Part shown: positions 10,150 through 23,874 of the stretch, piece after piece
Position numbering within the stretch: position 1 is the stretch's first letter
Layout of the letters: each line of letters starts with the position of its first letter
DNA from: Gammaproteobacteria bacterium
Lineage (GTDB): Bacteria; Pseudomonadota; Gammaproteobacteria; GCA-001735895
Reading direction: 5' to 3'
Assembly (NCBI GenBank): GCA_024686195.1
Contig: JAIBDO010000001.1
Span: forward strand, 1 to 61,522
DNA: 61,522 nt
The notes under the pieces: model-generated
Told to the model about the DNA's origin: nothing
Databases searched by the model: none
Seen by the model: only the letters and a program-made list of their open reading frames with translations
Position numbers and translations under genes: made by a program

Positions 10150-11037
10150 CTAATCGAAGAGGTCATCGTCCAGGGCCTGCGACAACAGTTCTATTAGCGC
10201 CCTGGCCATGGGTAGTATGGGATTGCCGGATACCCATGCCAGTCCGAGCTGCTGGGTAACGGTCGGATTGACTAATTGTTTGGCGCGTGTGCCCGGCAAT
10301 TCATTGAAGCGTTTTGGAACAATGGTTGCCAGATCTCCAGCCATGACATGAAAGGCCAGTTGGAAAATCGAATTCGATTCGAGTTGTGGTCTTGGTTTGC
10401 ACTCCACGGTGGCAAAGGCCGCGTCTATCATCTGACGTTCGCGCATCGCTGGTGACAGCAGGCAAAGCGGCAGGTTGGCTGCTTCGGCCCAGGTTACCGT
10501 CGGTTGATCGTCCAGCCAGTCGTTATCGGGCAGCAACAGGTGCAAGGGTTCTTCATACAGGGCAAGAGTTTCAAGCCGGGAGTCGGTGAGCTGTTCAAGG
10601 TCGGTGAAACCAACATCCAGCTCGAAGTTTTTCAGCGCAAGTGTCAGCTGATCGATGCCCATAAATTGAATGTCGACCTGCACGACTGGGTATTCCTTCT
10701 GGAACAGACGCGCCACAATCGGCAGCATCGGCGAACTGGTAGGCATTGCGCCGATTCTCAGGCGGCCGTGCAGATTCTTCTTCATGATCGCCAGCTCTTC
10801 GAGCATCGCCGAGCGATCAGATAGCAGTCGCTTCGCCCATTCTACGACACGCAAACCTTCGTTGGTGAATCCCTGGAATTTCTGGTCACGCAGGATGATC
10901 GGAACGCCGAGCTCCTCTTCCAGCTTTTTGATCGCACTGGACAGGCTTGGTTGAGACACGAAGCAACGTTCAGCGGCACGGCTGAAGTGTCCTTCCTGCT
11001 CGAGTGCGATTAAATACTGGAATTGGCGCAGAAACAT
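10150..11037 (-). CDS. LysR-family transcriptional regulator
   Basis: 295 aa with wHTH LRQFQYLIALEQEGHFSRAAERCFVSQPSLSSAIKKLEEELG. Divergent from the TauE/GcvT-like/PanB-like genes. Confidence 0.9.
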   Translation of the reverse strand: MFLRQFQYLIALEQEGHFSRAAERCFVSQPSLSSAIKKLEEELGVPIILRDQKFQGFTNEGLRVVEWAKRLLSDRSAMLEELAIMKKNLHGRLRIGAMPTSSPMLPIVARLFQKEYPVVQVDIQFMGIDQLTLALKNFELDVGFTDLEQLTDSRLETLALYEEPLHLLLPDNDWLDDQPTVTWAEAANLPLCLLSPAMRERQMIDAAFATVECKPRPQLESNSIFQLAFHVMAGDLATIVPKRFNELPGTRAKQLVNPTVTQQLGLAWVSGNPILPMARALIELLSQALDDDLFD

Positions 11038-11143
11038 GATTGCCCTGAGTAATCAGCTAGGTGCCTATGTTACATTAGTTTGTTGCCGGAATGCTGCTGC
11101 TTAGGTGCCGGTTTTTCGAATTTTTTGTCGCGGATGACTGTTG

Positions 11144-11893
11144 ATGTCGATAACCCTGATTTTAATCTGCCTTATTGTCGGTGTGCTGATCGGTGCAGTG
11201 GGTATTGGTGGCGTGCTGCTGGTGCCCTCACTCAACCTGATTGCCGGCATCGATGTGCATGAGGCCGTGCCCGCCTGCACACTCAGTTACCTGGCAACTG
11301 GGGTCATTGGTGTCATCGTCTATGCGCGCCACGGTTCGATACAATGGCCAAAGGTCTTCTGGCTTTGCCTGGGGGCCATACCGGCGGCATTTCTGGGTTC
11401 GATCTCACTGCTCAGTATCCCTTCGATCGTCGTGATGTCCCTGATTGCCTTGCTGATGATCGTTAGCGGTATTGACGCTCTGATCAAAGCTTATCGAAAA
11501 TCCTCTGACGAGCAGCCGAAGCGCCAGTTAAGCCCGTTGCAGTTTATCGTAATCGGTTTTATCACCGGATTCGGCTCGGCCATAACGGGCACGGGTGGCC
11601 CACTAATTCTCGTCCCGCTCATCATCTTTCTCGGCTTGCCTGTTCTCACCGCGATCGGCCTCAGTCAGGCCATTCAGCTGCCGATCGCGGCGTTTGCCAG
11701 TACCGGTAACTGGATGTCCGGAAACCTGAATTTTGAACTGGCCCTGGTGATTGCGGCGGTGTTAGTGGTCGGTTCGTTCGCTGGTGCGCTACTCATACAT
11801 CGGTTGCCGGCCGAACCGATCCGCAAGATGATTGCCTTCCTGCTGGTTTTTGTCGGTGCCGGTATCGGTATCCAGCAGCTATTCCAGCTGTAG
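11144..11893 (+). CDS. TauE/SafE-family (DUF81) membrane exporter, sulfite-exporter type
   Basis: About 249 aa, multi-TM and Gly-rich, with the internal duplication typical of TauE/SafE. The track starts at TTG 11141; ATG is at 11144. Confidence 0.85.
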   Translation: MSITLILICLIVGVLIGAVGIGGVLLVPSLNLIAGIDVHEAVPACTLSYLATGVIGVIVYARHGSIQWPKVFWLCLGAIPAAFLGSISLLSIPSIVVMSLIALLMIVSGIDALIKAYRKSSDEQPKRQLSPLQFIVIGFITGFGSAITGTGGPLILVPLIIFLGLPVLTAIGLSQAIQLPIAAFASTGNWMSGNLNFELALVIAAVLVVGSFAGALLIHRLPAEPIRKMIAFLLVFVGAGIGIQQLFQL

Positions 11894-11904
11894 GTCCTGT
11901 CGCA

Positions 11905-12918
11905 GTGTTATCGCTGGCGGATCTGGTTCGAGACTATGGCGACCCCCATGCAGAGGCAATGTGCTGTCGGCAGGATTGCGCGCTGTTTGATTTTTCCTTC
12001 GTTTACCGGATACGGGTCTCGGGCCGGAATGCGATCGCAAGGATCGAACAGTTCCAGCCACGAACCGTCAGCGATATGTCGATCGGGCAGATACGTTACA
12101 GTGTCAAACGCAACGCACAGGGCAGGGTGCGATCTGATTTGACGCTATGGCGCTACGCTGAGGACGTCTTCGAGATCATGAGCGGCTGTGCCGAAGATGT
12201 AAGCGATCTGCAGGCTCAGGCGGGCGAGGAGTTCATTCTGCAGAACCTGAGTGAGAGTACCGCTATTCTCTCATTGCAGGGGCCGAACACATTGGCACAG
12301 CTAGCCTGCTTCATGGATGTTACCGAGATCAGTACTCTGCCTTATTTTCACTTTGTCAGGGCACAAATTGGCGAACTACCCTGTCTGATCGGGCGCCTGG
12401 GTTACTCTGGTGAAGCAGGATTTGAGATATTGGTAGATCAGTCTGCTAGAGACTGGTTGTGGGATTTGTTGTCCACCAGGTTTCCACCGGCCGGTTTTGC
12501 CGCGATCGATATCCTGCGAATCGAAGCAGGTTTCTTCCTGTTTACCAATGAATGTCGAATTTCTCCGTCGATTGGCGAGCTCGGTTTGTCGGCTCTGCTT
12601 GGGGACAGGAAGGGAAGTCCGGAAATCAAACTGGTTGCCTTCGAAGGGAACTGTCATCACACACCGAATCCGGTCTTGTGGCAACCGACCAGTTCTGAGA
12701 TTCGACGCCCTGATTCCGGGGAGATAATGATCACTTCGGCCTGTTTCAGTCCACTGTTTAATCGCGTGATTGGACTGGGTTTTGTTAAGTTCGGCCAGGC
12801 AAGTGACGCCATTATCGATCCCAAACGCAAATTTTCCGACGTTAAAATTTGCTCGCTTCCACCCTACGACCCGCATAAAACAAGGCCTCGAAAGGCATGG
12901 AAGGCCGACACAAGGTGA
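11905..12918 (+). CDS. GcvT-family (aminomethyltransferase-like) folate-binding protein
   Basis: 337 aa with a GTG start 11 nt after the TauE stop. GcvT-like pattern: ...AEAMCCRQDCALFDFSFVYRIRVSGRNA..., LGYSGEAGFEI, DILRIEAGF. Confidence 0.75.
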   Translation: MLSLADLVRDYGDPHAEAMCCRQDCALFDFSFVYRIRVSGRNAIARIEQFQPRTVSDMSIGQIRYSVKRNAQGRVRSDLTLWRYAEDVFEIMSGCAEDVSDLQAQAGEEFILQNLSESTAILSLQGPNTLAQLACFMDVTEISTLPYFHFVRAQIGELPCLIGRLGYSGEAGFEILVDQSARDWLWDLLSTRFPPAGFAAIDILRIEAGFFLFTNECRISPSIGELGLSALLGDRKGSPEIKLVAFEGNCHHTPNPVLWQPTSSEIRRPDSGEIMITSACFSPLFNRVIGLGFVKFGQASDAIIDPKRKFSDVKICSLPPYDPHKTRPRKAWKADTR

Positions 12919-13033
12919 AAGCTATCACCCGATAAAGAGAAGCTCTTTGACAGTTTTTCACGGCCCGGCTTAGTATCTCCGGGCTGCAAAATTGACTTTT
13001 GCAATAATAAAATCAACCACCCACGAGGGAGTC

Positions 13034-13912
13034 ATGTCAGAAGAAACGCCTAGACGAAAGAAAGTAACGATACGTGAATTGCAGCGCAAGATGCGTGATG
13101 ACGAGCAGATTGTGCAGATGGCGATTTACGATTACAGAAGCGCAGTAATCGCAGATCGGCTGGGTATCGACATTCTATGTGTCTCCGATACGGGCGGAAT
13201 GATTTTATTCGGTCATCAGTCAACCGTCACCGTGAGCTTTGACGAAGTCATGATGATGTCGAAGGCTATTGATCGCGGCAGCAAGTACGGCCTTAGAATG
13301 GTCGATATGCCTTACTGGAGCTTTCATGTCTCGCCCGAGCAAGCGGTAGAAAACGCCGGCAAGTTCGTGCATCAGGCAAATGCTGAAGTGATGAAGTGCG
13401 AAGGCAATCAACACCACGCGAAGAATATTGAAGCCATCGTCAAGGCCGGCATTCCGGTGCAGGGGCATATCGGTATTACGCCCATGCGCATGCCGCAGCT
13501 GGGCGGGTTCATCGCCCAGGGTAAAACCTCAGATCGTGCCAAGGAACTCATTGATGACGCCTGGGCAATGGTAGATGCGGGATGTTTTTCTATCATGTGT
13601 GAAGTTACCACCGAGGAAGTTTGCGAATATCTGGCCGAAACATTGCCGGTGCCGGTGATCAGCCTTGGAGCAGGAAACAAGGCCCACGGTGTGCACATTA
13701 TAACTTCCGATTTATTGCATCTGTATGAAGAACATGTTCCACGGCACTCGAAAATTTATACCGACCTCATTCCAATCATGGAAGACGTTTTTATTCGCTA
13801 CCGCGACGAAGTAAGAGAGCGAGTGTATCCGGGACCCGAACACACGGTCTATATGCCACCTGAAGAGCTAAAGAAATTTGCAGAGGCGATGGACTGGAAG
13901 TCAAAACTGTAA
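13034..13912 (+). CDS. 3-methyl-2-oxobutanoate hydroxymethyltransferase (PanB) family paralog
   Basis: Colinear with my memory of E. coli PanB. Equivalents of the GDSLGM, VKIEGG and LECVP catalytic segments are present (SDTGGM, MKCEGN, MCEVT), with C-terminal VYPGPEH. ATG 13034 follows GAGGGAG; the track gives TTG 12992. Confidence 0.8.
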   Translation: MSEETPRRKKVTIRELQRKMRDDEQIVQMAIYDYRSAVIADRLGIDILCVSDTGGMILFGHQSTVTVSFDEVMMMSKAIDRGSKYGLRMVDMPYWSFHVSPEQAVENAGKFVHQANAEVMKCEGNQHHAKNIEAIVKAGIPVQGHIGITPMRMPQLGGFIAQGKTSDRAKELIDDAWAMVDAGCFSIMCEVTTEEVCEYLAETLPVPVISLGAGNKAHGVHIITSDLLHLYEEHVPRHSKIYTDLIPIMEDVFIRYRDEVRERVYPGPEHTVYMPPEELKKFAEAMDWKSKL

Positions 13913-14040: not shown

Positions 14041-15336
14041 ATGCCAGCCAGAAATCATAAGCAGTGGAGTGCCAAACCCGATCTAGAACTCGGGGAGTGG
14101 GTCGATAGTCGGATTTATTCTGACGAAGAGATATTCGAGGAAGAGCTGGACAAACTCTGGAAAAAATCCTGGATAGCACTTTGCCATGAATCGGAACTCC
14201 CGGAACCCTATGATTTCCGCACCGGGATTATCGCACGTGAGCCGGTTATCATGGTTCGCGGACCGGATAATAAAGTGCGCGCTTTTCTGAACGTTTGTCC
14301 ACACCGTGGAATGACGATTGAGCGCCGGCCCTCTGGCAGCTTCGCGCCGGCTCAGCCGTCAGGTAACCCGAAACACATGACCTGTTTATTCCATGCCTGG
14401 CAGTTTGACATGAAAGGCAACTGTGTTGACATACCGCGCCAGAAAGAGGGCTACCAGGATCGCCTCGACAAATCTTCCCAGGGTCTTCGGGCTTTGCGTT
14501 GTGAAGTCAAATACGGTGGTTTTGTCTGGGTCTGCCTTGATGATCACACGGAGTTTAACGTCGAAACCTGGGCCGCTGGTGCGATGGATTGCATCAAGGA
14601 TTCACTCGATGCCGAGCCGCTCGAACTGATTCACTACCACAAGGCGATCATCGATTGTAATTACAAACTGTGGCACGACACCAATAGTGAGTTCTATCAC
14701 GATTACATGCACTATCACAATCGCATCACCGGCTTCAACGACGACTATTTTCAGCGTGAGTGCTCGGCTTATGACAATGGCCACGTCAATGTTGGCACCT
14801 TCACCGTGAACTATGAAGAGTATGATGTTGCGGAAGATCGCGGCACCCTGTCATTCCCTAATCTACCCCCCGATAACTGGTACATGGTCGACATGTTTCC
14901 GGGATTGAACTTCAACCTGCGTGGTTCCGTGGTGCGCATGGACTTGATGACGCCGCTGAGCGCCAACCAGGTGATGATCGAATTCCGTGGTTTCGGGCTG
15001 AAAAGTGATTCGCCTGAAGATCGTGCGCATCGTATCCAGCATCACAATTCAATCTGGGGCCCACTGGGCCGTAACCTGCATGAAGACCTCATTGGTGTGG
15101 CCGGCCAGGGTACGACAATGACACCTAAATCAGAGCCGCGTCGTATTTTGCACGGTCGTCACGAGGGTGCTTACATACACGACGAAATCGGTATGCGTCA
15201 CTTTTACGAATCATGGGGTAAGAAGATGGACCGGTTGCCCAGTGATCCCGAGCAGAAATACAAAGCCGGCAAGGTAATGGGACCGGAAATGCCGCCCGCG
15301 AAGGGCTTGTCTACTTTCGCTGGCAAAGGTGCTTAA
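14041..15336 (+). CDS. msmA: Rieske non-heme-iron oxygenase alpha subunit, methanesulfonate monooxygenase hydroxylase large subunit-like
   Basis: 431 aa. Rieske ligands are C86-P-H88 and C115-L-F-H118, separated by 26 residues (nt 14296-14394). There is a mononuclear-iron His/Asp region (EFYHDYMHYH). AGGAG lies upstream of the ATG. The symbol rests on the X26 spacer and the operon context. Confidence 0.75.
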   Translation: MPARNHKQWSAKPDLELGEWVDSRIYSDEEIFEEELDKLWKKSWIALCHESELPEPYDFRTGIIAREPVIMVRGPDNKVRAFLNVCPHRGMTIERRPSGSFAPAQPSGNPKHMTCLFHAWQFDMKGNCVDIPRQKEGYQDRLDKSSQGLRALRCEVKYGGFVWVCLDDHTEFNVETWAAGAMDCIKDSLDAEPLELIHYHKAIIDCNYKLWHDTNSEFYHDYMHYHNRITGFNDDYFQRECSAYDNGHVNVGTFTVNYEEYDVAEDRGTLSFPNLPPDNWYMVDMFPGLNFNLRGSVVRMDLMTPLSANQVMIEFRGFGLKSDSPEDRAHRIQHHNSIWGPLGRNLHEDLIGVAGQGTTMTPKSEPRRILHGRHEGAYIHDEIGMRHFYESWGKKMDRLPSDPEQKYKAGKVMGPEMPPAKGLSTFAGKGA

Positions 15337-15485
15337 AGGCGGGTTTGCAGCGGAGAAACTGAACACGGACAACGGGGCAAGAGCTGATGGAGCAACGCCC
15401 TCGTCCAGTGTGATGCCTGCAGCATCGTAAGTTTGATTTAGCAACGCGCCTGCATGGCGTGAGAATATTATTGGAGAAGCTAGGA

Positions 15486-15983
15486 ATGAATGTAGAGGAA
15501 CAGCATATCAAATCGCTGGTCAGGGAAACGATATATGCGGCTGCCATGTTTCTGGACGATCAGAAATGGAATGACTGGATCGATCAGTGCGATGAAAGCT
15601 TCCACTATTCGGTGGTTACCTACAGCCATGAAGTGCGTAAGGATCTGACCTATCTGCTGATGAGCCACAAGGAAATGCATCCCTACTTTGATTTGCTACC
15701 AAAACACAATACGGATCATTCGCCGTTGCGGCGTCATGCCAGCATTTATACGGTAGATGTATCTGAAGACGGTAAAACGGCCGAGGCAGTGACGTCTTTC
15801 ATCATGACCCAGGAAATGATTGATGGCATCAGTGCGCCACTTTATTCAGGCGAAAATCGGTTATACCTGACCGGAAAATATTATGATAAGTTCAAAATTG
15901 ATGGTGAATCAGTGAAATTTACCGAACGGGTTGCACGGGTATACACCCGGCGGTTCGACAAAGGCACTCATTGGGTTTTCTGA
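15486..15983 (+). CDS. msmB: Oxygenase beta (small, NTF2-like) subunit
   Basis: About 165 aa directly after the alpha subunit, with the size and pattern of ring-hydroxylating-dioxygenase beta subunits. ATG 15486 follows GGAG; the track gives GTG 15459. Confidence 0.7.
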   Translation: MNVEEQHIKSLVRETIYAAAMFLDDQKWNDWIDQCDESFHYSVVTYSHEVRKDLTYLLMSHKEMHPYFDLLPKHNTDHSPLRRHASIYTVDVSEDGKTAEAVTSFIMTQEMIDGISAPLYSGENRLYLTGKYYDKFKIDGESVKFTERVARVYTRRFDKGTHWVF

Positions 15984-16093
15984 TTGGCATCTAACCGAAC
16001 TTTAGCCGTCATTGCAGGTTAGGTAAGCTCGAATGGTTGTCGGATGTTTCTCGGCTGCTAGACGAGTCAATAATAAATAACAGGAGTAGAGAG

Positions 16094-16474
16094 TTGAGTT
16101 GGGAAAAAATCTGCGGAGTTTCCGATGTTCCGGAAAACGCTCTGGAAAAGTTTGAAGTAAATGGCATTGAGCTAGTCGTCGCCAATTATGGCGGTGGTTT
16201 CCGTGCCTTTCCCCCGCGCTGTCCACACATGGAAGAAGCGCTTTGCGACTCTGCCGTGTTGTTCGACGGAATGCTGACCTGTACCAAGCACCTTTGGCAG
16301 TGGGATATGGGGTCAGGGGAAAAAACCGGAATAGCCGAAAAGGAGTTGCTGTTTTATGACGTTAAACAGGAAGGTGGCGATCTTTATGCGCAGGTCGACG
16401 AGGCGCTCGTCTATGAAGACGATGACGATGAAGACGAAGACGAAGACGACGAGGATTTTTTCAATGCCGACTAA
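16094..16474 (+). CDS. msmC: Rieske-type [2Fe-2S] ferredoxin with a poly-acidic C-terminal tail
   Basis: CPHMEEALC...(17 aa)...CTKHLWQWD, with the tail YEDDDDEDEDEDDEDFFNAD. I prefer TTG 16094, preceded by AGGAG at 7 nt spacing; the track gives TTG 16037. The start is uncertain. Confidence 0.7.
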   Translation: MSWEKICGVSDVPENALEKFEVNGIELVVANYGGGFRAFPPRCPHMEEALCDSAVLFDGMLTCTKHLWQWDMGSGEKTGIAEKELLFYDVKQEGGDLYAQVDEALVYEDDDDEDEDEDDEDFFNAD

Positions 16475-16628
16475 TGCCCGTGACGCTATCGAAAACGGAA
16501 GTCGGATAAGCATAGCGTCAGAGATGGCGGGTCAATAGAGCATATTATGCGAGTGACACTGGATTTTTTTAGCGGACGTCAAGGCGGGCTTCGGTGGGTC
16601 GCAAATCGACCCTGTGACCTGGATAATC

Positions 16629-17687
16629 ATGATGACCGGTAAAACGTTGAATATCCAGGTTAATGCCAGAAACCGCGCCTATACGCTTGATGGCACCAGT
16701 GATGATAAAATCCTCAACCTTGGCTTGAGTAACGCCATCGACCTCCCCTATGAGTGTGGTAGCGGTACCTGTGGTACCTGTAAAGCACGATTAATATCGG
16801 GAGAGATCTGTGATCGGTGGCCCGAAGCACCCGGGCGCAAGTTCTTGAAGCCTAAGAAAGGTGAGTTCCTGATGTGCCAGTGCGCTGCAAAAACGGATAG
16901 CGTGATCGAAGTAGAAAGTTTTGTGCACACCATGGAGGCCGGTGCCTGTGTACCCGGGTTAATTACTGGCCGAGTCAATAGTTCAAAACTTTTGACCCCG
17001 GATGTGATGTCACTGCAGATAACGATGGATCAGACATTCGATTTCGATGCGGGCCAGTTTATGCTGGTGCAGTTCCCCGAAGTAGTGGGTTTTCGTGGTT
17101 GGTCGATGGTGAATTATGAGCGTCATGCAAAAACCCTGGATTTTGTCATAAAGAAAAAACCTGACGGAGTACTGTCCGAATGGCTGTTTGGTAACAATTG
17201 TGAAGGTGTGGAAGTTGAACTCTACGGGCCATTGGGAAATGCCACCTTTTATTCGAGACTGGCCAAAAACATTCTTTGCATCGCCGGTGGTAGCGGCATT
17301 GCAGGCATCATGTCCATTCTTTCGAGGGCGGCACAGGACGGCTATTTCTCGCAGTATAGCGGGGATGTGTTTTTCGGTGTGCGCACCATGAAAGACGCAT
17401 TCTTTCTCGATGAACTAGCGGCTTTCCGCGCCGAGTGTGGTGAAAAACTGAATATCGTGATCGCTCTATCAGATGAAGACGTCCCCGCCTCTGCGCAGAT
17501 CGATTATCCGCAACTGGCGTTTGACAATGGGTTTGTTCACGAGGTGGCCGGTCGCCATATGGAAGATCGCTATCAGAATGTGAGAGCCTATCTTGCCGGC
17601 CCCCCACCTTTGGTGAATGGCTCGATAGGTATGCTACTGCGGGCGCGAGTGACTACCGATAATATCCGCTATGACAAGTTCAGTTAA
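16629..17687 (+). CDS. msmD: Oxygenase reductase: plant-type [2Fe-2S] ferredoxin domain fused to an FAD/NAD(P)H ferredoxin-reductase domain
   Basis: N-terminal CGSGTCGTCK...C cluster, followed by an FNR-like fold (RGWSMVNY, GGSGIAGIMS). ATG 16629; the track gives GTG 16614. Confidence 0.8.
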   Translation: MMTGKTLNIQVNARNRAYTLDGTSDDKILNLGLSNAIDLPYECGSGTCGTCKARLISGEICDRWPEAPGRKFLKPKKGEFLMCQCAAKTDSVIEVESFVHTMEAGACVPGLITGRVNSSKLLTPDVMSLQITMDQTFDFDAGQFMLVQFPEVVGFRGWSMVNYERHAKTLDFVIKKKPDGVLSEWLFGNNCEGVEVELYGPLGNATFYSRLAKNILCIAGGSGIAGIMSILSRAAQDGYFSQYSGDVFFGVRTMKDAFFLDELAAFRAECGEKLNIVIALSDEDVPASAQIDYPQLAFDNGFVHEVAGRHMEDRYQNVRAYLAGPPPLVNGSIGMLLRARVTTDNIRYDKFS

Positions 17688-17697
17688 GAGTGTCGTC

Positions 17698-18429
17698 ATG
17701 AGCAAGAATATACACATATGTAAGCTGAGTGATATTCCCGCCAACGGAATCAAGGATTTCGTGCTTGAGGGCGGCGAAAAAGTGCTTATCGCTAACTTCA
17801 GCGAGAATTATTATGCCTATAACGGAAATTGCCCTCATCAGGGTACATGCCTTGCCGAAGGTTTTTTCGACGGTGCGGTACTGACCTGTAACAAACATTT
17901 ATGGCAGTGGGATATCACCACCGGAAAGCCCATCGGCCTTGCCGAAGCCCCACTGGAAAGCTATCAGCTCGAGATTGAAGACGGCGAGATATATGTTCGC
18001 AAGGCCAATGCGTTGAAGATGGCCGAGTTATTCAGGGATATTTCAACTAGCACGCAGGACTTGCTGGTGAAACTCACCCGGCGAGAAGAATATGAAGTTG
18101 GTAGCGTTCTATACGATCTGGGTGATCTGACAGACGATCTCTACATTCTCGAATCGGGTCGGGTCGAGTTCGAACTTGGTCGAGACGAACGTACCAGTGC
18201 GGCCGGGTTTATCTTGCGTAAAGGCGAGGTTTTCGGATGGGCCGCACTACTTGAGCATCAACCGATACGTATCGCCCAGGCTGTTTGTGTGGAAAAATCG
18301 GTTCTGTTGCGTCTCAATGGCGAGGAAGTTGTTAAGGTATTAGCAACCGATCCGGCTTCTGGCTACCTGGTCATGCGCCAGTTAGCTACTTTGATCACCA
18401 GGCACTTCACCTCGTCGAGCGAGCAATGA
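17698..18429 (+). CDS. Rieske [2Fe-2S] ferredoxin (MsmC paralog) fused to a C-terminal cyclic-nucleotide-binding-like domain
   Basis: The N-terminal about 105 aa align with the preceding ferredoxin (CPHQGTCL...LTCNKHLWQWD). The C-terminal about 130 aa have the Crp/cNMP beta-roll pattern (VLYDLGDLTDDLYILESGRVEF...RKGEVFGWAALLEHQPIRIAQAVCVEKSVLLRL). ATG 17698 lies just after the reductase stop. Confidence 0.8.
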   Translation: MSKNIHICKLSDIPANGIKDFVLEGGEKVLIANFSENYYAYNGNCPHQGTCLAEGFFDGAVLTCNKHLWQWDITTGKPIGLAEAPLESYQLEIEDGEIYVRKANALKMAELFRDISTSTQDLLVKLTRREEYEVGSVLYDLGDLTDDLYILESGRVEFELGRDERTSAAGFILRKGEVFGWAALLEHQPIRIAQAVCVEKSVLLRLNGEEVVKVLATDPASGYLVMRQLATLITRHFTSSSEQ

Positions 18430-18600: not shown

Positions 18601-19755
18601 ATGTTATCTAAATTAAAAAGTATCCAACATCGGGTCACTACCGGTTTCGCTGCGTTGATTGTAGCGTTAGGCCTTACGGCGCCCGGATTAGTGTCCACCG
18701 CATCTGCCGCTGAAATTGATTTTGGCAAGGTCGGAGATCCGATCAATCTTGTTGTAGGTTATCAGCCATATTACACAGAAGCCTGGTCCGGTGTGGTCAT
18801 GAAGAGCCTGAAGCTGTACGAAAAGTACTTGCCGAAAGGGTCGACTGTTGAATTTCAGATTGGCCTGCAAGGCGGTATTATCGTTAACGCCATGCTCGCA
18901 GGAAAGCAACACATCGGCTACATGGGTGACATGCCGGCCATCGTCGCCACCACCAAGGATCGCGTAGCTGACATTCGTATCGTTGCGACCGCAGGTCTTG
19001 GTTTTGATCAGTGCAATAACATGCTGGTCAGAAATGATGCACCGCAGTTTGCCAATGCCGGCGAAGCCATCCAGTGGATGGATGGGAAGGTCGTAGCAGT
19101 ACCGAAAGGCGCCTGTACTGACCGCTTTGCACTGGCTGTTTTCGAGAAAGAAAACATCAAGCCGGCCAGCTACCTGAACCAGAACATCGAAGTAATCACC
19201 AGTGGCTTCCGCGCTGGCAAGCTCGATGCGGCTGCGATCTGGGAACCAACGGCATCACGTCTGGTTGAGGAAGGACTGGCACGTAAAGTTGCTTCTGGCG
19301 CCTCGGTTGATGAGAATGATGGTGGTTTTATCGACATGCGTGGTGACCTGATTGACCAACGTCCCGACGTTGTCAAAGCCTGGCTGAATGCCGAACTCGA
19401 CGCGCAATTGTTCATGGCTGATCCCAAAAACACCATGGCAATCGTGAAGATGGCTGAAGAGCAAACCACTGGCTTCGAATCCAAGGTGCTTTGGAAAGCT
19501 ATGGTTGGTACCACACCGGTACTCCAGGGCGGCACACCGGTTCGAAATGAACTGGCTTTTGCTATTACCCCGAAGGCCCAGGCGCTGATCGACAAAGCAA
19601 CTGTCTTTCTGCACTCCATCAAGACGATCAAAGTGGATACCCTGCGTGACAACGCGATCGAGCGTAGCTTCACCGAAGAAATCCTGAAGGAGCGTGGTCT
19701 GTCAGCACCCGTTGGCAAGATGTGGGCTCAGCCAGATTCTGCTTACGGTATGTAG
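18601..19755 (+). CDS. ABC transporter periplasmic substrate-binding protein, NitT/TauT (NMT1/SsuA-like) family; msmE-like
   Basis: 384 aa with a signal peptide ending ...STASA-AE. GAGGAG precedes the ATG. Sits beside cognate permease and ATPase genes. Confidence 0.85.
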   Translation: MLSKLKSIQHRVTTGFAALIVALGLTAPGLVSTASAAEIDFGKVGDPINLVVGYQPYYTEAWSGVVMKSLKLYEKYLPKGSTVEFQIGLQGGIIVNAMLAGKQHIGYMGDMPAIVATTKDRVADIRIVATAGLGFDQCNNMLVRNDAPQFANAGEAIQWMDGKVVAVPKGACTDRFALAVFEKENIKPASYLNQNIEVITSGFRAGKLDAAAIWEPTASRLVEEGLARKVASGASVDENDGGFIDMRGDLIDQRPDVVKAWLNAELDAQLFMADPKNTMAIVKMAEEQTTGFESKVLWKAMVGTTPVLQGGTPVRNELAFAITPKAQALIDKATVFLHSIKTIKVDTLRDNAIERSFTEEILKERGLSAPVGKMWAQPDSAYGM

Positions 19756-19933: not shown

Positions 19934-21286
19934 ATGCCTGACCCGGCAAACAATTCGGAAATTCTAAGCGCCTTGAAAAGCGCGATGCCCTTTCAGATGG
20001 TACCCGGTAATCTGATGCAGGAGATTGCTGCAATCTGTACGCAGGAATCATATGAAGCAGGTGAGAAAATATATGACCTGGGCGCGGTAGCAGACGATGT
20101 TTTCATCGTCGCTTACGGAAGCGTGCGACATACCCTGTCGGCGGATACAGACGCGAGCAAGCATGAGAAAACCATGCGCAGCGGTGATGTTTTCGGCTGG
20201 GCCGCTGTTCTTGAAGGTCAGAGTGTACGTATGGCGGCGACTGCCAGCATCGAGCGTACCCTGGTGCTACGCATCAACGGCAAAAAACTGATCAAATTGT
20301 TTGAGAGCGATCCCGCGGTCGGTGACGTTGTCATGACGCGATTCGCGACCTTGATTAATAAAGAATTCTACGTGCCCAGATCGATTGCCGATCAGGTGCC
20401 GGGCTTCAAGCAAGCCCTCAATGCAAGCAATCTTCAGGGCTCTGAAGTGACCACCATGGCGTTAACCGTCTATCGGATTTCGACCTGGCTGAAAAGCCCG
20501 CGACCGTACCTGATGTTGATCGGTTTTGCACTGTTCCTCAGCTTCTGGATGCTGTCGGTCGAGATTTGGAAATTACCGCGCTTTGTCGATATGCCTGGGC
20601 CGACCGAGGTGTTTACCGAGTGGTTCAGCGAAGATCCCTATTACGGTCTGTCGATCTACACCCCCGAGTATTACAAGCACATTGGCATAAGCCTGCAACG
20701 TATTGCCTTCGCCTTCTTTCTGGCGACTGGGCTGGGTGTGCCACTGGGGCTGTTCCTCGGTTGGTCGAAGAAATTCCGTGAATATATTTTCCCCCTGTTC
20801 GAGGTGTTTCGGCCAATTCCGGTTCTCGCCTGGGTACCACTGGCGATTATCATGTTCAGTGGCTCTGAAACTCCGGTTATTTTCCTGACTTTCCTGGCCT
20901 CATTCTTCGCTACAACGCTGAACACCATGCTGGGCGTAGAATCGATCGACGAGTCCTACAGTCGGGCTGCTCGATGTCTGGGTGCCAGTCGCTGGCAGAC
21001 ATTCGTTCATGTGGTGATCCCCGGCGCTATGCCCTACATTTTTACCGGCCTGCAAATATCCATCGGTGTCGCCTGGTTCTCGCTGGTGGCGGGAGAGATG
21101 GTGTCCGGTCAGTACGGCCTGGGATATGTCATTAACACCGCCTACATGATGATCGAATATCCGAAAATTATCATCGGCATGATCACCCTTGGCGTAGTCG
21201 GCTACATCACCAGCGCCATGGTGCGCATGATGGGTGATTACCTCATGCAGTGGCGGGTGCGTGAACTGGCCCTCGGAGATAACTAA
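19934..21286 (+). CDS. ABC transporter permease (NitT/TauT family) with an N-terminal cyclic-nucleotide-binding-like domain
   Basis: 450 aa. Residues about 12-145 have the cNMP/Crp-like beta-roll (EKIYDLGAVADDVFIVAYGSVRH...SGDVFGWAAVLEGQSVRMAATASIERTLVLRI). The remainder is a 6-TM BPD_transp_1-type permease. Confidence 0.85.
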   Translation: MPDPANNSEILSALKSAMPFQMVPGNLMQEIAAICTQESYEAGEKIYDLGAVADDVFIVAYGSVRHTLSADTDASKHEKTMRSGDVFGWAAVLEGQSVRMAATASIERTLVLRINGKKLIKLFESDPAVGDVVMTRFATLINKEFYVPRSIADQVPGFKQALNASNLQGSEVTTMALTVYRISTWLKSPRPYLMLIGFALFLSFWMLSVEIWKLPRFVDMPGPTEVFTEWFSEDPYYGLSIYTPEYYKHIGISLQRIAFAFFLATGLGVPLGLFLGWSKKFREYIFPLFEVFRPIPVLAWVPLAIIMFSGSETPVIFLTFLASFFATTLNTMLGVESIDESYSRAARCLGASRWQTFVHVVIPGAMPYIFTGLQISIGVAWFSLVAGEMVSGQYGLGYVINTAYMMIEYPKIIIGMITLGVVGYITSAMVRMMGDYLMQWRVRELALGDN

Positions 21287-22149
21287 TGAGTGCAGTAATA
21301 GATGAAAATTTAGGTTCGCTGGCGGACGTCACCGACGGCGCAATCAGCATTAAGGATGTGGTCAAAATATACGACCCGGATGGGGCCGCGGTGATGGCGG
21401 TCGACCATTGTTCGATCGAAATTCCAGCTGGGGAAATCTGTATGATCGTCGGCCCGTCGGGTTGCGGCAAGACAACCCTGCTGAATGCCATTGCCGGTTT
21501 CCACGGCATCACTTCCGGCAGTATCCACCTCGATGGCGAACTGTTGTGCGGCCCTGAAAAGCCACAGGCAGAGCCCGGTTCTGATCGCATTGTAGTGTTC
21601 CAGAACGGCGCACTATTCCCCTGGAAGACCAATCTCGACAACGTTGCTTTCGGGCCGATGATGGCTGGTAAGCTGAGCAAGGAGGAAATCTACGATAAGG
21701 CGCGCAGCATGATGGCAGACGCGGGCCTGAGCGGCAACGAGAACAACTATCCGGGCGAAATATCCTCGGGCTTGCGGCGTCGGGTCGAAATAGTCCGCGC
21801 ACTCATGAACGATCCCAAAGTATTGCTATTCGATGAGCCTTATCGCGCGCTTGATTCTCTCACCAAGTCGGTTATGCATGAAGCCTTGCTGGAAATCTAC
21901 TATCGCAACAAGGTCACGATTTTCTTTATAACTCACGATCTCGAAGAGGCGATCTTCCTTGGCCACCGGTTGATCATCATGTCTTCCCGACCCTGTAAGC
22001 CAAAGAAAATTGTAGAAGTGGATATACCCCATCCACGCGATTACAGCGTGCTGACTTCTCCCCGTTTTCGGGAGCTTATGAACGAAGCCAAAGACGTCGT
22101 GCATGAGGAGGCTACCAAAGCCTTCGAAGCCGGCGAAAAAGAAGGATAG
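21286..22149 (+). CDS. ABC transporter ATP-binding protein (NitT/TauT family)
   Basis: Walker A GPSGCGKTT, signature ISSGLRRR, Walker B LLFDEP. Its start shares 1 nt with the permease stop. Confidence 0.9.
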   Translation: MSAVIDENLGSLADVTDGAISIKDVVKIYDPDGAAVMAVDHCSIEIPAGEICMIVGPSGCGKTTLLNAIAGFHGITSGSIHLDGELLCGPEKPQAEPGSDRIVVFQNGALFPWKTNLDNVAFGPMMAGKLSKEEIYDKARSMMADAGLSGNENNYPGEISSGLRRRVEIVRALMNDPKVLLFDEPYRALDSLTKSVMHEALLEIYYRNKVTIFFITHDLEEAIFLGHRLIIMSSRPCKPKKIVEVDIPHPRDYSVLTSPRFRELMNEAKDVVHEEATKAFEAGEKEG

Positions 22150-22156
22150 AACAGAG

Positions 22157-22981
22157 ATGAGTGTAAGCAATTTTTCAGACAAGCTGTTCAGTAAGGCAGC
22201 GATGCGTGGCATCTTCGCGATCGTCGTTTTCGTGCTGATATGGGAAGTCGGTGCTCGTTCCGAGCAATGGTTTGGTTATCGTTTCCCGTTTATTGGATTG
22301 GTACCCCCGCCCACCGATGTATTCGTCAGCTGGGGAGGATTGATTGCGGATCCCAGTTACTGGCAAAGCTGGTACATGAGTTTCCTGCGTGTTTTCGGAG
22401 GATTCGCGGCGGCCATGGTCATCGGAATCCCGATGGGTTTGCTAATGGCGGTCAATAAAGCCAGTTACGGCATCATTTTTCCGTCTTTTGAAGTGCTGCG
22501 TCCTATTCCACCGCTAGCCTGGGTGCCGGCGTCGATCATCTTCTGGCCTACCCAGGAATTGTCGATTGCCTTCGTCACTTTCCTCGGCGCGTTTTACACC
22601 ATTGTTATCAATGTGCTGGGTGGCGCTAAATCGATCAACAAGCAGTTTTTGCAGGCCGCGCAATCTATGGGAGCGTCACAGTGGGACATCTTCCGTCGCA
22701 TCGTTCTCCCTGCAACATTGCCATCGATTGTGGTTGGTTCTGCAGTTGGTATGGGAATTACCTGGGAGGTTGTGGTCGCCGCAGAAATGATCTCGGGTGG
22801 TGGCAGCTCCGGTGGTGGTGCCGGTGGCGGGCTCGGATTTTTTATCTGGAGCTCTTATGTGGGTGGATCCTACGAACAGATCATTGTCGGCATGATCAGT
22901 ATCGGCATCGCCGGTTATATAAGCAGCGAGCTATTGCGGCAACTCGGTGGTTTGCTAACTCCCTGGCTGAAAACACGGTAA
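22157..22981 (+). CDS. ABC transporter permease (NitT/TauT family), second membrane subunit
   Basis: Permease fold with a Gly-rich insertion EMISGGGSSGGGAGGGLGFF. I use ATG 22157 (MSVSNFSDK...). The track start at 22103 would overlap the ATPase gene by 47 nt. Confidence 0.85.
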   Translation: MSVSNFSDKLFSKAAMRGIFAIVVFVLIWEVGARSEQWFGYRFPFIGLVPPPTDVFVSWGGLIADPSYWQSWYMSFLRVFGGFAAAMVIGIPMGLLMAVNKASYGIIFPSFEVLRPIPPLAWVPASIIFWPTQELSIAFVTFLGAFYTIVINVLGGAKSINKQFLQAAQSMGASQWDIFRRIVLPATLPSIVVGSAVGMGITWEVVVAAEMISGGGSSGGGAGGGLGFFIWSSYVGGSYEQIIVGMISIGIAGYISSELLRQLGGLLTPWLKTR

Positions 22982-22986
22982 CCCAG

Positions 22987-23874
22987 ATGAATACAACTAC
23001 TCAAGATTCGGTTAAGCCAAAAACGGCTTCCTTCGCACAAGCCAGCAGCGAAATTGTGGCGACGAATATTTCCAAGTCCTATGGCGCAGGTCCTTTTGCC
23101 AAGCAGGTTGTCGATAACTGTTCGTTTACCATCGAAAGCAATAAATTGACCGTGATGATCGGGCCATCGGGTTGCGGCAAAAGTACTCTCATCCAGCTGA
23201 TTGCGGGTTTTGAGAGTCCTGATAGCGGTACGATTACGATGAACGGCAATCCGATCACGGGTCCGGGAAAGGATCGTCTGGTACTGTTCCAGGAGTCTGC
23301 ACTTTTCCCGTGGATGACTACCTATGACAACATCATGTATGGTCCTCGAGCGCGCGGTGAAGATAACGCCGAATCGGTAGAGTTGGCCGAGTTTCTGCTG
23401 GCCAAGGTCGGTCTCGAGGCTTTCAGGGACAAGTACCCGCAACAGCTCTCGGGCGGCATGCAGCGTCGAGCAGAACTGGCACGGGCAATGATCAACAAGC
23501 CCGAAGTGATGATCCTTGATGAGCCGTTTCGCGGTCTGGATAACATGTCCAAGGAGTTGATGTGGGAATACTATGCAGCACTCTACGAAGAAGACAAAAA
23601 TACCAACTTTTTCGTGACCACGGACATTGACGAAGCCATCTTTCTCGCCGATCGCCTGTTGATTATGACTAATCTCCCAACCAACTGCCGTTCCGTTATC
23701 GAGATCGATATACCCCGCCCGCGTCGGATCGACGATATCGGTAACAACGCTCGTGCGAATGATATCAAGAAAGAGGTGATGACCTTGCTACACGAGGAAG
23801 CGATGAAATCCTTCTCGGGTGGCAGTAAGGCCGCGGCAGATTTCCTCGATGCTTATTCCAAGCGCGCCGGTTGA
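22987..23874 (+). CDS. ABC transporter ATP-binding protein (NitT/TauT family), second ATPase
   Basis: Walker A GPSGCGKST, signature LSGGMQRR, Walker B MILDEP. The true start is ATG 22987 (MNTTTQDS...). The track's extension back to 22681 is an out-of-frame read through the permease gene. Confidence 0.9.
   Translation: MNTTTQDSVKPKTASFAQASSEIVATNISKSYGAGPFAKQVVDNCSFTIESNKLTVMIGPSGCGKSTLIQLIAGFESPDSGTITMNGNPITGPGKDRLVLFQESALFPWMTTYDNIMYGPRARGEDNAESVELAEFLLAKVGLEAFRDKYPQQLSGGMQRRAELARAMINKPEVMILDEPFRGLDNMSKELMWEYYAALYEEDKNTNFFVTTDIDEAIFLADRLLIMTNLPTNCRSVIEIDIPRPRRIDDIGNNARANDIKKEVMTLLHEEAMKSFSGGSKAAADFLDAYSKRAG

What the first reader, a model, noticed from the sequence alone, without database searches (positions are those of the whole stretch)
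18232..18276. Both sensor domains share the same non-canonical phosphate-binding cassette
The segment corresponding to the cNMP phosphate-binding cassette reads:
- FGWAALLEHQPIRIA in the ferredoxin fusion (nt 18232-18276)
- FGWAAVLEGQSVRMA in the permease fusion (nt 20192-20236)

In canonical cAMP/cGMP binders the pattern is F-G-E-(L/I)-A-L...R-(S/T)-A. There the Glu contacts the ribose 2'-OH and the Arg plus Ser/Thr contact the phosphate. Here Glu is replaced by Trp and Ser/Thr by Ile/Met in both proteins, while the Arg is kept. The DNA is also visibly paralogous (ttttcggctgggccgc versus ttttcggatgggccgc).

A shared deviation implies a shared ligand, possibly not a cyclic nucleotide. The anionic substrate or sulfite are speculative candidates.
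Basis: partly seen in the sequence, partly recalled or inferred. Interest (0 to 1): 0.6.

Follow-up and report, generated by a model that had tools for sequence, protein, structure and literature searches.

The report
Atypical sensor domains in methanesulfonate operon
Two proteins of a methanesulfonate-degradation gene cluster, an electron-carrying ferredoxin and an importer membrane subunit, carry copies of one unusual sensor-type domain in which a tryptophan replaces the glutamate that normally grips cyclic nucleotides, which suggests that one still-unknown small molecule controls uptake and oxidation directly at the protein level.

Summary
FGWAALLEHQPIRIA (nt 18232-18276) and FGWAAVLEGQSVRMA (nt 20192-20236) lie in two paralogous PF00027 domains and align to the phosphate-binding cassette (PBC) of PKG, PKA and Crp. 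Trp sits at the ribose-contacting Glu, and the phosphate-binding Arg is kept.

The deviation is a family hallmark. FGW...R(I/L/M)A occurs in about 97% of listed homologs of both fusions and in a third, free-standing class that usually lies beside the TauE sulfite exporter. All three classes belong to one conserved oxygenase, ABC importer and sulfite-export module found in about 80 species. In 62 of 68 clusters the CNB-fused Rieske protein is the only ferredoxin.

The window's oxygenase has the CXH-X26-CXXH MsmA hallmark, so this is a methanesulfonate cluster.

- The shared motif also reflects common ancestry.
- Residues other than Ser/Thr occur after the Arg in genuine binders.
- Glu-less Epac binds cAMP.
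- 49 of 50 further carrier genomes encode class III cyclases.
- Against a cyclic nucleotide, Glaciimonas immobilis keeps four FGW domains with no class I/III cyclase found.

No paper describing this subfamily was found. The scan has noted the same domain trio on DNA of four other genomes.

The parts
17698..18429 (+). Rieske [2Fe-2S] ferredoxin fused to a C-terminal FGW-type CNB domain. It is 243 aa from the start used by homologs; the longest ORF starts at 17671.
   Evidence: Pfam gives Rieske at residues 14-91 and cNMP_binding at 139-227. There are 1251 homologs, most of them 241-243 aa. The cluster ligands C45, H47, C64 and H67 are invariant. The AF2 model has pLDDT 81, and Foldseek hits oxygenase ferredoxins and GlxR/CRP.
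17998..18426 (+). CNB domain of the ferredoxin fusion: N-helix, beta-roll and C-helix, with no HTH after it.
   Evidence: The protein ends about 25 residues after the start of the C-helix.
18232..18276 (+). Phosphate-binding-cassette equivalent FGWAALLEHQPIRIA. Trp is at 18238-18240 and Arg at 18268-18270.
   Evidence: 116 of 120 listed homologs have FGW...RIA.
19934..21286 (+). MsmF-like ABC importer permease (NitT/TauT family) with an N-terminal FGW-type CNB domain.
   Evidence: Pfam gives cNMP_binding at 38-126 and BPD_transp_1 at 268-431. NCBIfam matches TauC-, SsuC- and NtrB-like permeases. There are 3737 homologs.
19934..20380 (+). CNB domain of the permease fusion. It is inferred to be cytoplasmic, because it has no signal peptide and precedes the first membrane helix.
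   Evidence: The topology is an inference.
20192..20236 (+). Phosphate-binding-cassette equivalent FGWAAVLEGQSVRMA. Trp is at 20198-20200 and Arg at 20228-20230.
   Evidence: 117 of 119 homologs have FGW, and the residue after the Arg is L or M in nearly all.
14041..15336 (+). Oxygenase alpha subunit with the CPH-X26-CLFH Rieske spacer, the MsmA hallmark.
   Evidence: PMC4433239 describes the hallmark.
15459..15983 (+). Oxygenase beta subunit (MsmB-like).
   Evidence: Weak Ring_hydroxyl_B match, 25.9 bits against Pfam's cut-off of 27. Its position is conserved in related loci.
16037..16474 (+). Plain Rieske ferredoxin (MsmC-like) with a poly-acidic C-terminal tail.
   Evidence: It is present in only 6 of 68 related clusters.
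16614..17687 (+). Fer2/FAD/NAD reductase (MsmD-like).
18601..19755 (+). Periplasmic substrate-binding protein (MsmE-like, SsuA/NMT1 family).
21286..23874 (+). ATPase (21286-22149), second permease without a CNB domain (22103-22981) and second ATPase (about 22990-23874) of the importer.
11141..13912 (+). TauE sulfite exporter, GcvT-like folate protein and PanB paralog, the product-disposal genes upstream. In this window there is no free-standing CNB gene here.
   Evidence: In relatives a free-standing FGW CNB gene sits between panB and tauE.

Best explanation
**Proposal.** The two segments are the ligand-site loops of a distinct, pathway-dedicated subfamily of the cyclic-nucleotide-binding (CNB) fold.

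**What the site keeps and what it changes.** It keeps the anion-binding half of the site: the PBC helix N-terminus and the invariant Arg. It replaces the ribose-contacting Glu by an invariant Trp, and the small residue after the Arg by Ile, Leu or Met.

**Inferred mechanism.**
- The domain binds a small anionic metabolite of the pathway rather than cAMP or cGMP. Sulfite, the toxic product, or methanesulfonate, the substrate, are the most likely candidates.
- It acts allosterically on the protein it is attached to.
- On the MsmF-like permease it would gate import from the cytoplasmic side, as in trans-inhibition.
- On the Rieske ferredoxin it would gate electron delivery to the oxygenase.
- In relatives, a free-standing copy encoded next to tauE would act on sulfite export or on signalling.

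**Shown here.**
- The fold and the position of the motif.
- Family-wide conservation of the motif.
- Linkage of the domain to this gene module.
- The fused ferredoxin is the sole ferredoxin in most clusters.

**Inferred, not shown.**
- That the domain binds a ligand at all.
- The identity of the ligand.
- The direction of control.
For: - **Fold and motif position:** the domains are PF00027 members, and the motif sits on the PBC.
- **Conservation of the motif:**
  - W and R are near-invariant in both fusion families.
  - They are invariant across an 11-sequence alignment of both classes, together with G76, V78, F79, G80, A83, Q88 and A93.
  - The top single-domain hits among 1.8 billion representatives are all this FGW type.
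- **Linkage to the pathway:**
  - The same module (alpha, beta, reductase, Rieske-CNB, SBP, CNB-permease, ATPase, permease, ATPase) is found in Thiobacillus, Thiodiazotropha and an Anaerolineales MAG, usually with TauE nearby.
  - It is also found in Methyloversatilis, Methylibium and Glaciimonas.
  - Nearly every one of 80 loci has both fusions.
- **The fusion is functional, not a relic:**
  - The fused protein is the only ferredoxin in 62 of 68 clusters.
  - The Rieske ligands are invariant.
- **Third class:** a free-standing copy lies beside tauE in 8 of 9 loci. In at least four of these it is co-directional and immediately upstream, overlapping tauE in L080.
- **Co-inheritance:** the ferredoxin-type and permease-type subtrees are congruent, so the two were inherited as a unit.
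- **Departures from canonical binders:**
  - The window's genome has canonical (F/I)GE...R CNBs elsewhere, and only these two are FGWAA.
  - The Gly169-equivalent column is T, A or S.
  - Glaciimonas immobilis has four FGW domains but no class I/III cyclase and no canonical CNB.
- **Precedent:** NtcA (PBC GV...R) binds 2-oxoglutarate in its regulatory domain, as cAMP does in CRP.
Against: - No binding data exist.
- The AF2 confidence is lowest over the cassette (block mean pLDDT 50-76), and model coordinates could not be inspected.
- The Arg that binds the cyclic phosphate is retained.
- Epac binds cAMP with Gln or Lys at the Glu position (and general knowledge).
- The genome has 11 class III cyclase domains. 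In the wider sample, 49 of 50 further carrier genomes have them, as do 4 of 5 sampled separately (four isolates and a Methylibium MAG).
- The pocket residues do not differ between clusters with the X26 and X17 oxygenase. This gives no handle on substrate versus product as the ligand.
Confidence: 0.5

Rival explanations
1. The domains are genuine cAMP or cGMP receptors with an unusual cassette. A second messenger, for example a carbon- or energy-status signal, switches methanesulfonate import and oxidation on or off.
For: - The PBC Arg and the flanking Gly and Ala are invariant.
- The best sequence and fold matches are all true cNMP binders: PKG, PKA, GlxR and CRP.
- Epac lacks the Glu and still binds cAMP.
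- The genome encodes 11 class III cyclase domains, and 49 of 50 other carrier genomes have them.
Against: - Trp is bulky at the ribose-contact position, and none of the 30 CNB families of Kannan et al. has it.
- The Gly169 partner of the Arg is lost.
- Glaciimonas immobilis keeps four FGW domains with no class I/III cyclase and no canonical CNB found.
- A Herminiimonas MAG also lacks PF00211.
- The domain is confined to one metabolic module, which is unusual for a global messenger.
Confidence: 0.25
2. The domains bind no small molecule and serve as protein-protein docking modules. For example, the single CNB on the heterodimeric importer could pair with the CNB on the ferredoxin through their C-helices. 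This would tether the oxygenase electron chain to the importer as a metabolon.
For: - There is one CNB per importer, because the second permease lacks it.
- The two are strictly co-inherited.
- CNB domains of CRP-family proteins dimerise through the C-helix (general knowledge).
- The C-helix segment is highly conserved: FATLI/FATMI in permeases and L(A/S)(T/S)LITRH in ferredoxins.
Against: - The best-conserved block is the ligand-site cassette itself, including the anion-binding Arg, not only the helix.
- Permeases with tandem CNBs still co-occur with the Rieske-CNB.
- Free-standing copies exist beside tauE and beside two-component regulators.
- No complex prediction could be run.
Confidence: 0.15
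3. The shared motif is only an inherited quirk of a duplicated domain that has lost its function, a decaying appendage.
For: The two domains are paralogs, and the FGW classes cluster together in the tree.
Against: - Motif residues are near-invariant across more than 1000 homologs of each class, down to about 60% overall identity.
- Many other columns are invariant too.
- The domain was retained in three architectures across Gamma- and Betaproteobacteria and in MAGs labelled Chloroflexota and Actinomycetota.
Confidence: 0.03

Closest known systems
Canonical CNB domains of CRP/GlxR, PKA-R and PKG (Pfam PF00027)
   Same: - The fold matches: beta-roll, short PBC helix and C-helix.
- The HMM matches are above cut-off.
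- The PBC has the same length as in CAP (15 residues from F to A).
- The Gly before the Glu position, the Arg and the final Ala are kept.
   Different: - Trp replaces the ribose-contacting Glu.
- Ile, Leu or Met follows the Arg, instead of S/T/A/N/Q/V.
- The beta2-beta3 Gly169 equivalent is T, A or S.
- There is no HTH, kinase or channel partner. The domain is instead fused to a Rieske ferredoxin or to an ABC importer permease.
NtcA regulatory domain (2-oxoglutarate sensor, PBC consensus GVLSLLTGSDRFYHAVA)
   Same: It is a CNB fold in which the Glu is replaced by a hydrophobic residue while the Arg is kept. It binds a small organic anion instead of a nucleotide. It shows up as a weak sequence match to these domains.
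   Different: - NtcA is a dimeric transcription factor with an HTH.
- Its second ligand-contacting Arg128 on the long helix has no clear equivalent here.
- Sequence similarity is only marginal.
Epac CNB domains (PBC GQLALVNDAPRAA)
   Same: They lack the PBC Glu but keep the Arg.
   Different: Its replacement residue is polar (Gln or Lys), not Trp, and the residue after the Arg is Ala.
Classical msmABCD / msmEFGH of Methylosulfonomonas methylovora and Filomicrobium
   Same: The alpha subunit has CXH-X26-CXXH. The beta subunit, Rieske ferredoxin and reductase are present, with an adjacent SBP, permease and ATPase importer.
   Different: - Filomicrobium MsmF is about 295 aa and MsmC about 125 aa, with no CNB domain and no second ferredoxin (Table 1 of PMC4433239).
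- In this window the permease carries a CNB domain, and an extra CNB-fused ferredoxin follows the reductase.
- Here all genes lie on one strand, whereas in Filomicrobium and Me. methylovora the msmABCD and msmEFGH operons are divergently transcribed.
Trans-inhibited ABC importers MetNI and ModBC (general knowledge, not tested here)
   Same: This is a functional analogy: a cytoplasmic ligand-binding domain on an importer senses an internal metabolite and shuts uptake.
   Different: In those systems the regulatory domain is a C-terminal extension of the ATPase and has a different fold. Here it is an N-terminal CNB domain on one membrane subunit.

Membership tests
CNB domain superfamily (Pfam PF00027) | Profile match above the curated gathering score | tested here: met
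   52.9 bits (ferredoxin fusion) and 39.0 bits (permease fusion) against a cut-off of 27.5.
CNB domain superfamily (Pfam PF00027) | Eight-stranded beta-roll with a short PBC helix between beta6 and beta7, followed by a C-helix | tested here: met
   The AF2 model of the ferredoxin fusion has strands at 128-207, a helix at 181-184 and helices at 208-238. Foldseek hits GlxR, CRP, CNG channels and PKG at probability 1.00. The CNB part of the permease model has block mean pLDDT mostly 60-86, and the rest is poor.
Canonical cAMP/cGMP-binding CNB domains | PBC Gly-Glu, where the Glu contacts the ribose 2'-OH | tested here: not met
   Trp is at this position in both proteins and in about 97% of homologs.
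Canonical cAMP/cGMP-binding CNB domains | PBC Arg that binds the cyclic phosphate (Arg209 of PKA, Arg82 of CAP) | tested here: met
   The Arg is invariant and aligns with the Arg of PKG and Crp.
Canonical cAMP/cGMP-binding CNB domains | Small or polar residue after the Arg: S/T, or [ANQV] in Kannan et al. 2007 | tested here: not met
   Ile in ferredoxin fusions and Leu or Met in permease fusions. This is a mild departure, because the contact is through the backbone.
Canonical cAMP/cGMP-binding CNB domains | Beta2-beta3 loop Gly (Gly169 of PKA) co-conserved with the Arg | tested here: not met
   The column aligned with the Gly of PfPKG (gdyGd) is T, A, S or V in all 11 aligned domains.
Canonical cAMP/cGMP-binding CNB domains | Measured binding of cAMP or cGMP | not testable with these tools
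   This needs ITC or DSF on purified domains.
Canonical cAMP/cGMP-binding CNB domains | A nucleotide cyclase in every genome that carries the domain | tested here: inconclusive
   - The window's own genome has 11 PF00211 matches.
- 49 of 50 other carrier genomes have PF00211, and the exception is a Herminiimonas MAG.
- 4 of 5 genomes sampled separately (four isolates and a Methylibium MAG) have it.
- Glaciimonas immobilis DSM 23240 has neither PF00211 nor PF01295, only one CYTH protein.
CRP/FNR transcription factors | C-terminal helix-turn-helix DNA-binding domain after the CNB domain | tested here: not met
   The ferredoxin fusion ends about 25 residues after the start of the C-helix. The permease fusion continues into membrane helices. 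There is no HTH family hit.
Methanesulfonate monooxygenase/importer cluster (msmABCD-msmEFGH) | Alpha subunit with the CXH-X26-CXXH Rieske motif | tested here: met
   CPH + 26 residues + CLFH at residue 86. The hallmark is described in PMC4433239.
Methanesulfonate monooxygenase/importer cluster (msmABCD-msmEFGH) | Beta subunit, Rieske ferredoxin, Fer2/FAD/NAD reductase and an adjacent NitT/TauT-type ABC importer | tested here: met
Methanesulfonate monooxygenase/importer cluster (msmABCD-msmEFGH) | Methanesulfonate oxidation or growth on methanesulfonate | not testable with these tools
   The source is an uncultured-type draft genome (268 contigs, 91% complete).

The most novel reading that the evidence does not exclude
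The FGW-type domain is a receptor for an inorganic or C1 sulfur oxyanion, either sulfite or methanesulfonate. That would make it the first CNB-fold sensor of that ligand class. The retained Arg and helix N-terminus would hold the SO3 group, and the Trp would close the emptied ribose site. By sitting on the importer and on the oxygenase's ferredoxin, and beside the sulfite exporter, it would coordinate uptake, oxidation and product export of a toxic-product pathway. This control would be purely post-translational.
Probability: 0.3. Interest if true: 0.75.

Novelty: new variant of a known kind. Interest (0 to 1): 0.55.

Why it matters
Methanesulfonate is a major atmospheric and marine sulfur intermediate, and its oxidation releases sulfite and formaldehyde, both toxic.

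**A new level of control.** A dedicated sensor domain attached to the importer and the electron carrier, with a third copy beside the sulfite exporter in relatives, would mean that flux through the pathway is set directly at the protein level. Control of this kind is not described for the msm system. It has rarely been described for ABC importer membrane subunits or for oxygenase ferredoxins.

**Relevance to the CNB field.** This is a large, sharply defined subfamily: thousands of sequences with an invariant Trp for Glu and the Arg retained. Its ligand is unknown and its context strongly narrows the candidates, so the question is directly testable.

**Practical consequence.** The 'cyclic nucleotide-binding' annotation on these proteins should not be read as evidence of cAMP control.

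Tried and rejected
1. **Full-length AF2 model of the CNB-permease.** I wanted to see how the domain docks on the membrane part. Mean pLDDT was 55 and the membrane region was below 50, so it was unusable.
2. **Inspecting the pocket of the ferredoxin-fusion model.** Coordinates are not exposed, and the cassette has the lowest confidence.
3. **Looking for a solved structure with an FGW cassette.** Profile and single-sequence searches of PDB returned only FGE-type or unrelated non-canonical domains.
4. **Third large homolog search with the domain profile.** It mostly re-found the ferredoxin fusions.
5. **Phyletic test 'carriers without cyclases'.** It did not discriminate in general, because 49 of 50 carriers have class III cyclases. 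Only Glaciimonas is informative.
6. **Comparing cassette residues between X26 and X17 oxygenase clusters.** The aim was to separate substrate from product as the ligand. There was no systematic difference.
7. **Family 2B encapsulin CNB insert.** This was a weak NCBIfam and PDB match. I considered it only generic CNB similarity and did not pursue it.
8. **Literature searches for this domain on msm, Rieske or permease proteins.** They found nothing.
9. **Heme, Fe-S or other cofactor binding.** I rejected this because no Cys or His is conserved across the classes. The Cys after the cassette is Ser in the window's permease.
Full report
**1. The observation**

- ORF 17671-18429 reads ...GEVFGWAALLEHQPIRIAQAV..., with the 15-mer at nt 18232-18276.
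- ORF 19934-21286 reads ...GDVFGWAAVLEGQSVRMAATA..., with the 15-mer at nt 20192-20236.

Pfam finds PF00027 above its cut-off in both proteins, next to a Rieske domain in the first and BPD_transp_1 in the second. The two CNB domains are 38% identical over 134 residues with no gap, E 1e-35. The similarity is therefore far beyond chance.

**2. Is the segment really the phosphate-binding cassette?**

Three independent lines agree.
- phmmer against PDB aligns FGW with FGE of PfPKG, PKG-I CNB-B and T. thermophilus Crp. The Arg aligns with their PBC Arg. A profile of 11 such domains gives the same register.
- The Pfam match spans the whole beta-roll.
- The AlphaFold model of the ferredoxin fusion (pLDDT 81) has a four-residue helix at W181-L184 between two strands, with R191 immediately before the next strand. 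Foldseek matches the C-terminal half to GlxR, CRP, CNG channels and PKG, and the N-terminal half to oxygenase Rieske ferredoxins.

So Trp sits at the Glu position and Ile or Met at the position after the Arg.

One refinement concerns the motif. The canonical motif compiled by Kannan et al. (PMC2246266) is FGE[LIV]AL[LIMV]X[PV]R[ANQV]. Ser/Thr after the Arg is therefore not obligatory, and I/L/M is only a mild departure.

The beta2-beta3 Gly (Gly169 of PKA) is co-conserved with the Arg in cAMP binders according to that paper. In all aligned members of this subfamily it is T, A, S or V.

**3. How general is the deviation?**

*The permease fusion.*
- It has 3737 homologs at E<=0.001.
- Of the 119 listed homologs in which a cassette could be recognised, 117 read FGW.
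- The residue after the Arg is Leu or Met.
- Some betaproteobacterial permeases carry two such domains in tandem.

*The ferredoxin fusion.*
- It has 1251 homologs, and 116 of the 120 listed read FGW...RIA.
- Most are 241-243 aa, so the true start in the window is probably 17698.

*Across both classes.*
- G35, Y39, D47, G54, G76, V78, F79, G80, W81, A83, Q88, R91, A93, E99, R105, G108 and P119 are invariant.

*Wider searches.*
- A profile search of 1.84 billion representatives shows that the best single-domain matches are all of this FGW type.
- None of the 30 CNB families of Kannan et al. has a GW cassette.
- No PDB entry with one was found.
- In the window's own genome there are 14 CNB matches. 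Five have a canonical (F/I)GE...R cassette, including a clear CRP. Only the two in this cluster are FGWAA.

**4. Context**

*The window's cluster.*
- It encodes an oxygenase alpha subunit with CPH-X26-CLFH. PMC4433239 describes this spacer as specific to the methanesulfonate monooxygenase large subunit.
- It also encodes a beta subunit, a plain Rieske ferredoxin with an acidic tail, a reductase, the Rieske-CNB fusion and an SsuA-type binding protein.
- These are followed by the CNB-permease, an ATPase, a second permease without CNB and a second ATPase.
- Upstream lie TauE, a GcvT-like protein and a PanB paralog, with a divergent LysR regulator.
- Classical msm operons lack the CNB parts. In Filomicrobium, MsmF is about 295 aa, MsmC is about 125 aa, and no second ferredoxin follows the reductase.

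*Related clusters.*
- The same module with both CNB fusions occurs in Thiobacillus, Thiodiazotropha, a Betaproteobacteria MAG and an Anaerolineales MAG.
- It also occurs in T. denitrificans DSM 12475, T. thioparus DSM 505, Methyloversatilis universalis FAM5, Methylibium and Glaciimonas immobilis.
- Among 80 loci from GTDB species, nearly all that are long enough carry both fusions.
- The alpha subunit has the 17-residue spacer in most of them and the 26-residue spacer in only five.
- In 62 of 68 loci with a complete oxygenase part, the CNB-fused protein is the only Rieske ferredoxin. Only the window's gammaproteobacterial relatives also have a plain MsmC.
- The fusion must therefore be a working electron carrier. 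Its cluster ligands are invariant.

**5. A third class**

- Nine loci encode a free-standing FGW domain of about 155 aa ending in ...LTAFAGG.
- In eight of them it lies next to tauE.
- In at least four loci (L056, L079, L080, L086) it is co-directional and immediately upstream of tauE. L085 has the same arrangement by Pfam. The order is panB-CNB-tauE, overlapping tauE by 14 nt in L080.
- In two loci the arrangement is convergent.
- In Glaciimonas one copy follows a histidine kinase / NtrC-type pair and precedes tauE. A second copy follows a paralogous kinase/regulator pair at another locus.

**6. Phylogeny**

A maximum-likelihood tree of the domains gives these clades:

| Class | Support (UFBoot/SH-aLRT) |
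|---|---|
| Ferredoxin-type | 87/86 |
| Permease-type | 100/99 |
| Free-standing | 97/86 |

- Together the three classes separate from the canonical FGE domains of the same genome (96/91).
- Two long-branch non-canonical CNBs of the genome fall inside that group, and their placement is unsure.
- The ferredoxin and permease subtrees are congruent: window+L007, L062+L058, L020+L022+L042 and L014+L015+L021+L023.
- So the domains duplicated once, early, and have since been inherited together.
- The shared cassette is thus partly explained by descent. Its invariance in three lineages shows purifying selection on the site.

**7. Cyclic nucleotide or not?**

*Arguments that keep cNMP alive.*
- The Arg is retained.
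- Epac binds cAMP without the Glu.
- The genome has 11 class III cyclase domains.
- 49 of 50 further carrier genomes have such domains, as do 4 of 5 genomes sampled separately.

*Arguments against.*
- A bulky Trp sits at the ribose contact.
- The Gly169 partner is lost.
- The domain is restricted to one metabolic module.
- Glaciimonas immobilis has four FGW domains. Its other two CNB matches are FNR-like or non-canonical. It has no PF00211 or PF01295 match and only one CYTH protein.

NtcA is a precedent for a Glu-less, Arg-retaining CNB domain that binds a small organic anion.

I conclude that a non-nucleotide, probably anionic pathway metabolite is the most likely ligand, at about 50%. An atypical cNMP site is the main rival, at about 25%.

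**8. Mechanism proposed (inferred)**

- The domain is cytoplasmic. It lies N-terminal to the first membrane helix of the permease and is fused to a soluble ferredoxin.
- Ligand binding at the Arg/Trp site would move the conserved C-helix, as in other CNB domains. This would alter importer gating, ferredoxin docking to the reductase or oxygenase, and, through the free-standing copy, sulfite export or signalling.
- Sulfite as the ligand would give coherent negative feedback on uptake and oxidation and activation of export.
- Methanesulfonate as the ligand would give trans-inhibition of uptake and feed-forward opening of electron flow, which would limit uncoupled NADH oxidation.
- The data do not choose between them.

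**9. Novelty**

- No paper in the searchable library links a CNB domain to msm proteins, Rieske ferredoxins or NitT/TauT permeases.
- Earlier notes of this scan describe the same domain trio on four other genomes and on this window. This report reaches the same reading independently and adds five points:
  - the register check against PDB;
  - the Gly169 column;
  - the sole-ferredoxin count;
  - the congruent tree;
  - the cyclase census with the Glaciimonas exception.
- I class it as a new variant of a known kind: a new CNB subfamily in new fusions.

Noticed in passing
window 16412-16474: The plain MsmC-like ferredoxin ends in a poly-Asp/Glu tail (DDDDEDEDEDDEDFFNAD). The paralogous ferredoxin carries the CNB domain at the same end. 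Plain MsmC is present in only 6 of 68 related clusters.
   Followed up: partly
L001, L004, L006 and most of L014-L086 (alpha subunit genes): Most clusters that carry the two CNB fusions have an MsmA-like alpha subunit with a 17-residue Rieske spacer, not the 26-residue MsmA hallmark. The substrate of these enzymes (Thiobacillus, Methyloversatilis, Methylibium) is not established.
   Followed up: partly
L094 (Glaciimonas G004:C4:163000-179000) and L093 (G004:C12:881000-897000): Free-standing FGW CNB genes lie directly downstream of paralogous histidine kinase / sigma-54 NtrC-type regulator pairs. In L094 the CNB gene is followed by tauE and a DMSO-reductase-type DmsABC set, just upstream of the oxygenase cluster. 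This hints at a role of the free-standing domain in signalling, and at a link to dimethylsulfoxide or dimethylsulfone metabolism.
   Followed up: partly
L004 10001-11851 (P0044) and P0034, P0042, P0051: Some betaproteobacterial permeases carry two FGW-type CNB domains in tandem before the membrane part (616-625 aa).
   Followed up: partly
own genome G000:C111:695-955: A further small CNB protein (166-aa ORF) has a different Trp-containing cassette (LGWSWLIPPYRWNFMARA). It groups with representative P0372 rather than with the FGWAA classes.
   Followed up: no
window 11141-13912 and 10150-11037: A TauE sulfite exporter, a GcvT-like folate protein and a PanB paralog precede the oxygenase genes, with a divergent LysR-type regulator. 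These are likely the product-disposal genes (sulfite, C1 unit) and the transcriptional control of the island.
   Followed up: partly
L001-L003 upstream region: In Thiobacillus the module is flanked by SBP56 (methanethiol-oxidase-type), SCO1, MauG and Fae genes and by a formate dehydrogenase. Together these look like a C1-sulfur metabolism island.
   Followed up: no
L038, L077, L014, L021: Copies of the module appear in MAGs labelled Streptomycetaceae, Anaerolineales and Rhizobium with near-identical betaproteobacterial-type sequences. For example, the L021 'Rhizobium' copy is nearly identical to that of Thiobacillus thioparus. This suggests mis-binning or recent transfer.
   Followed up: no
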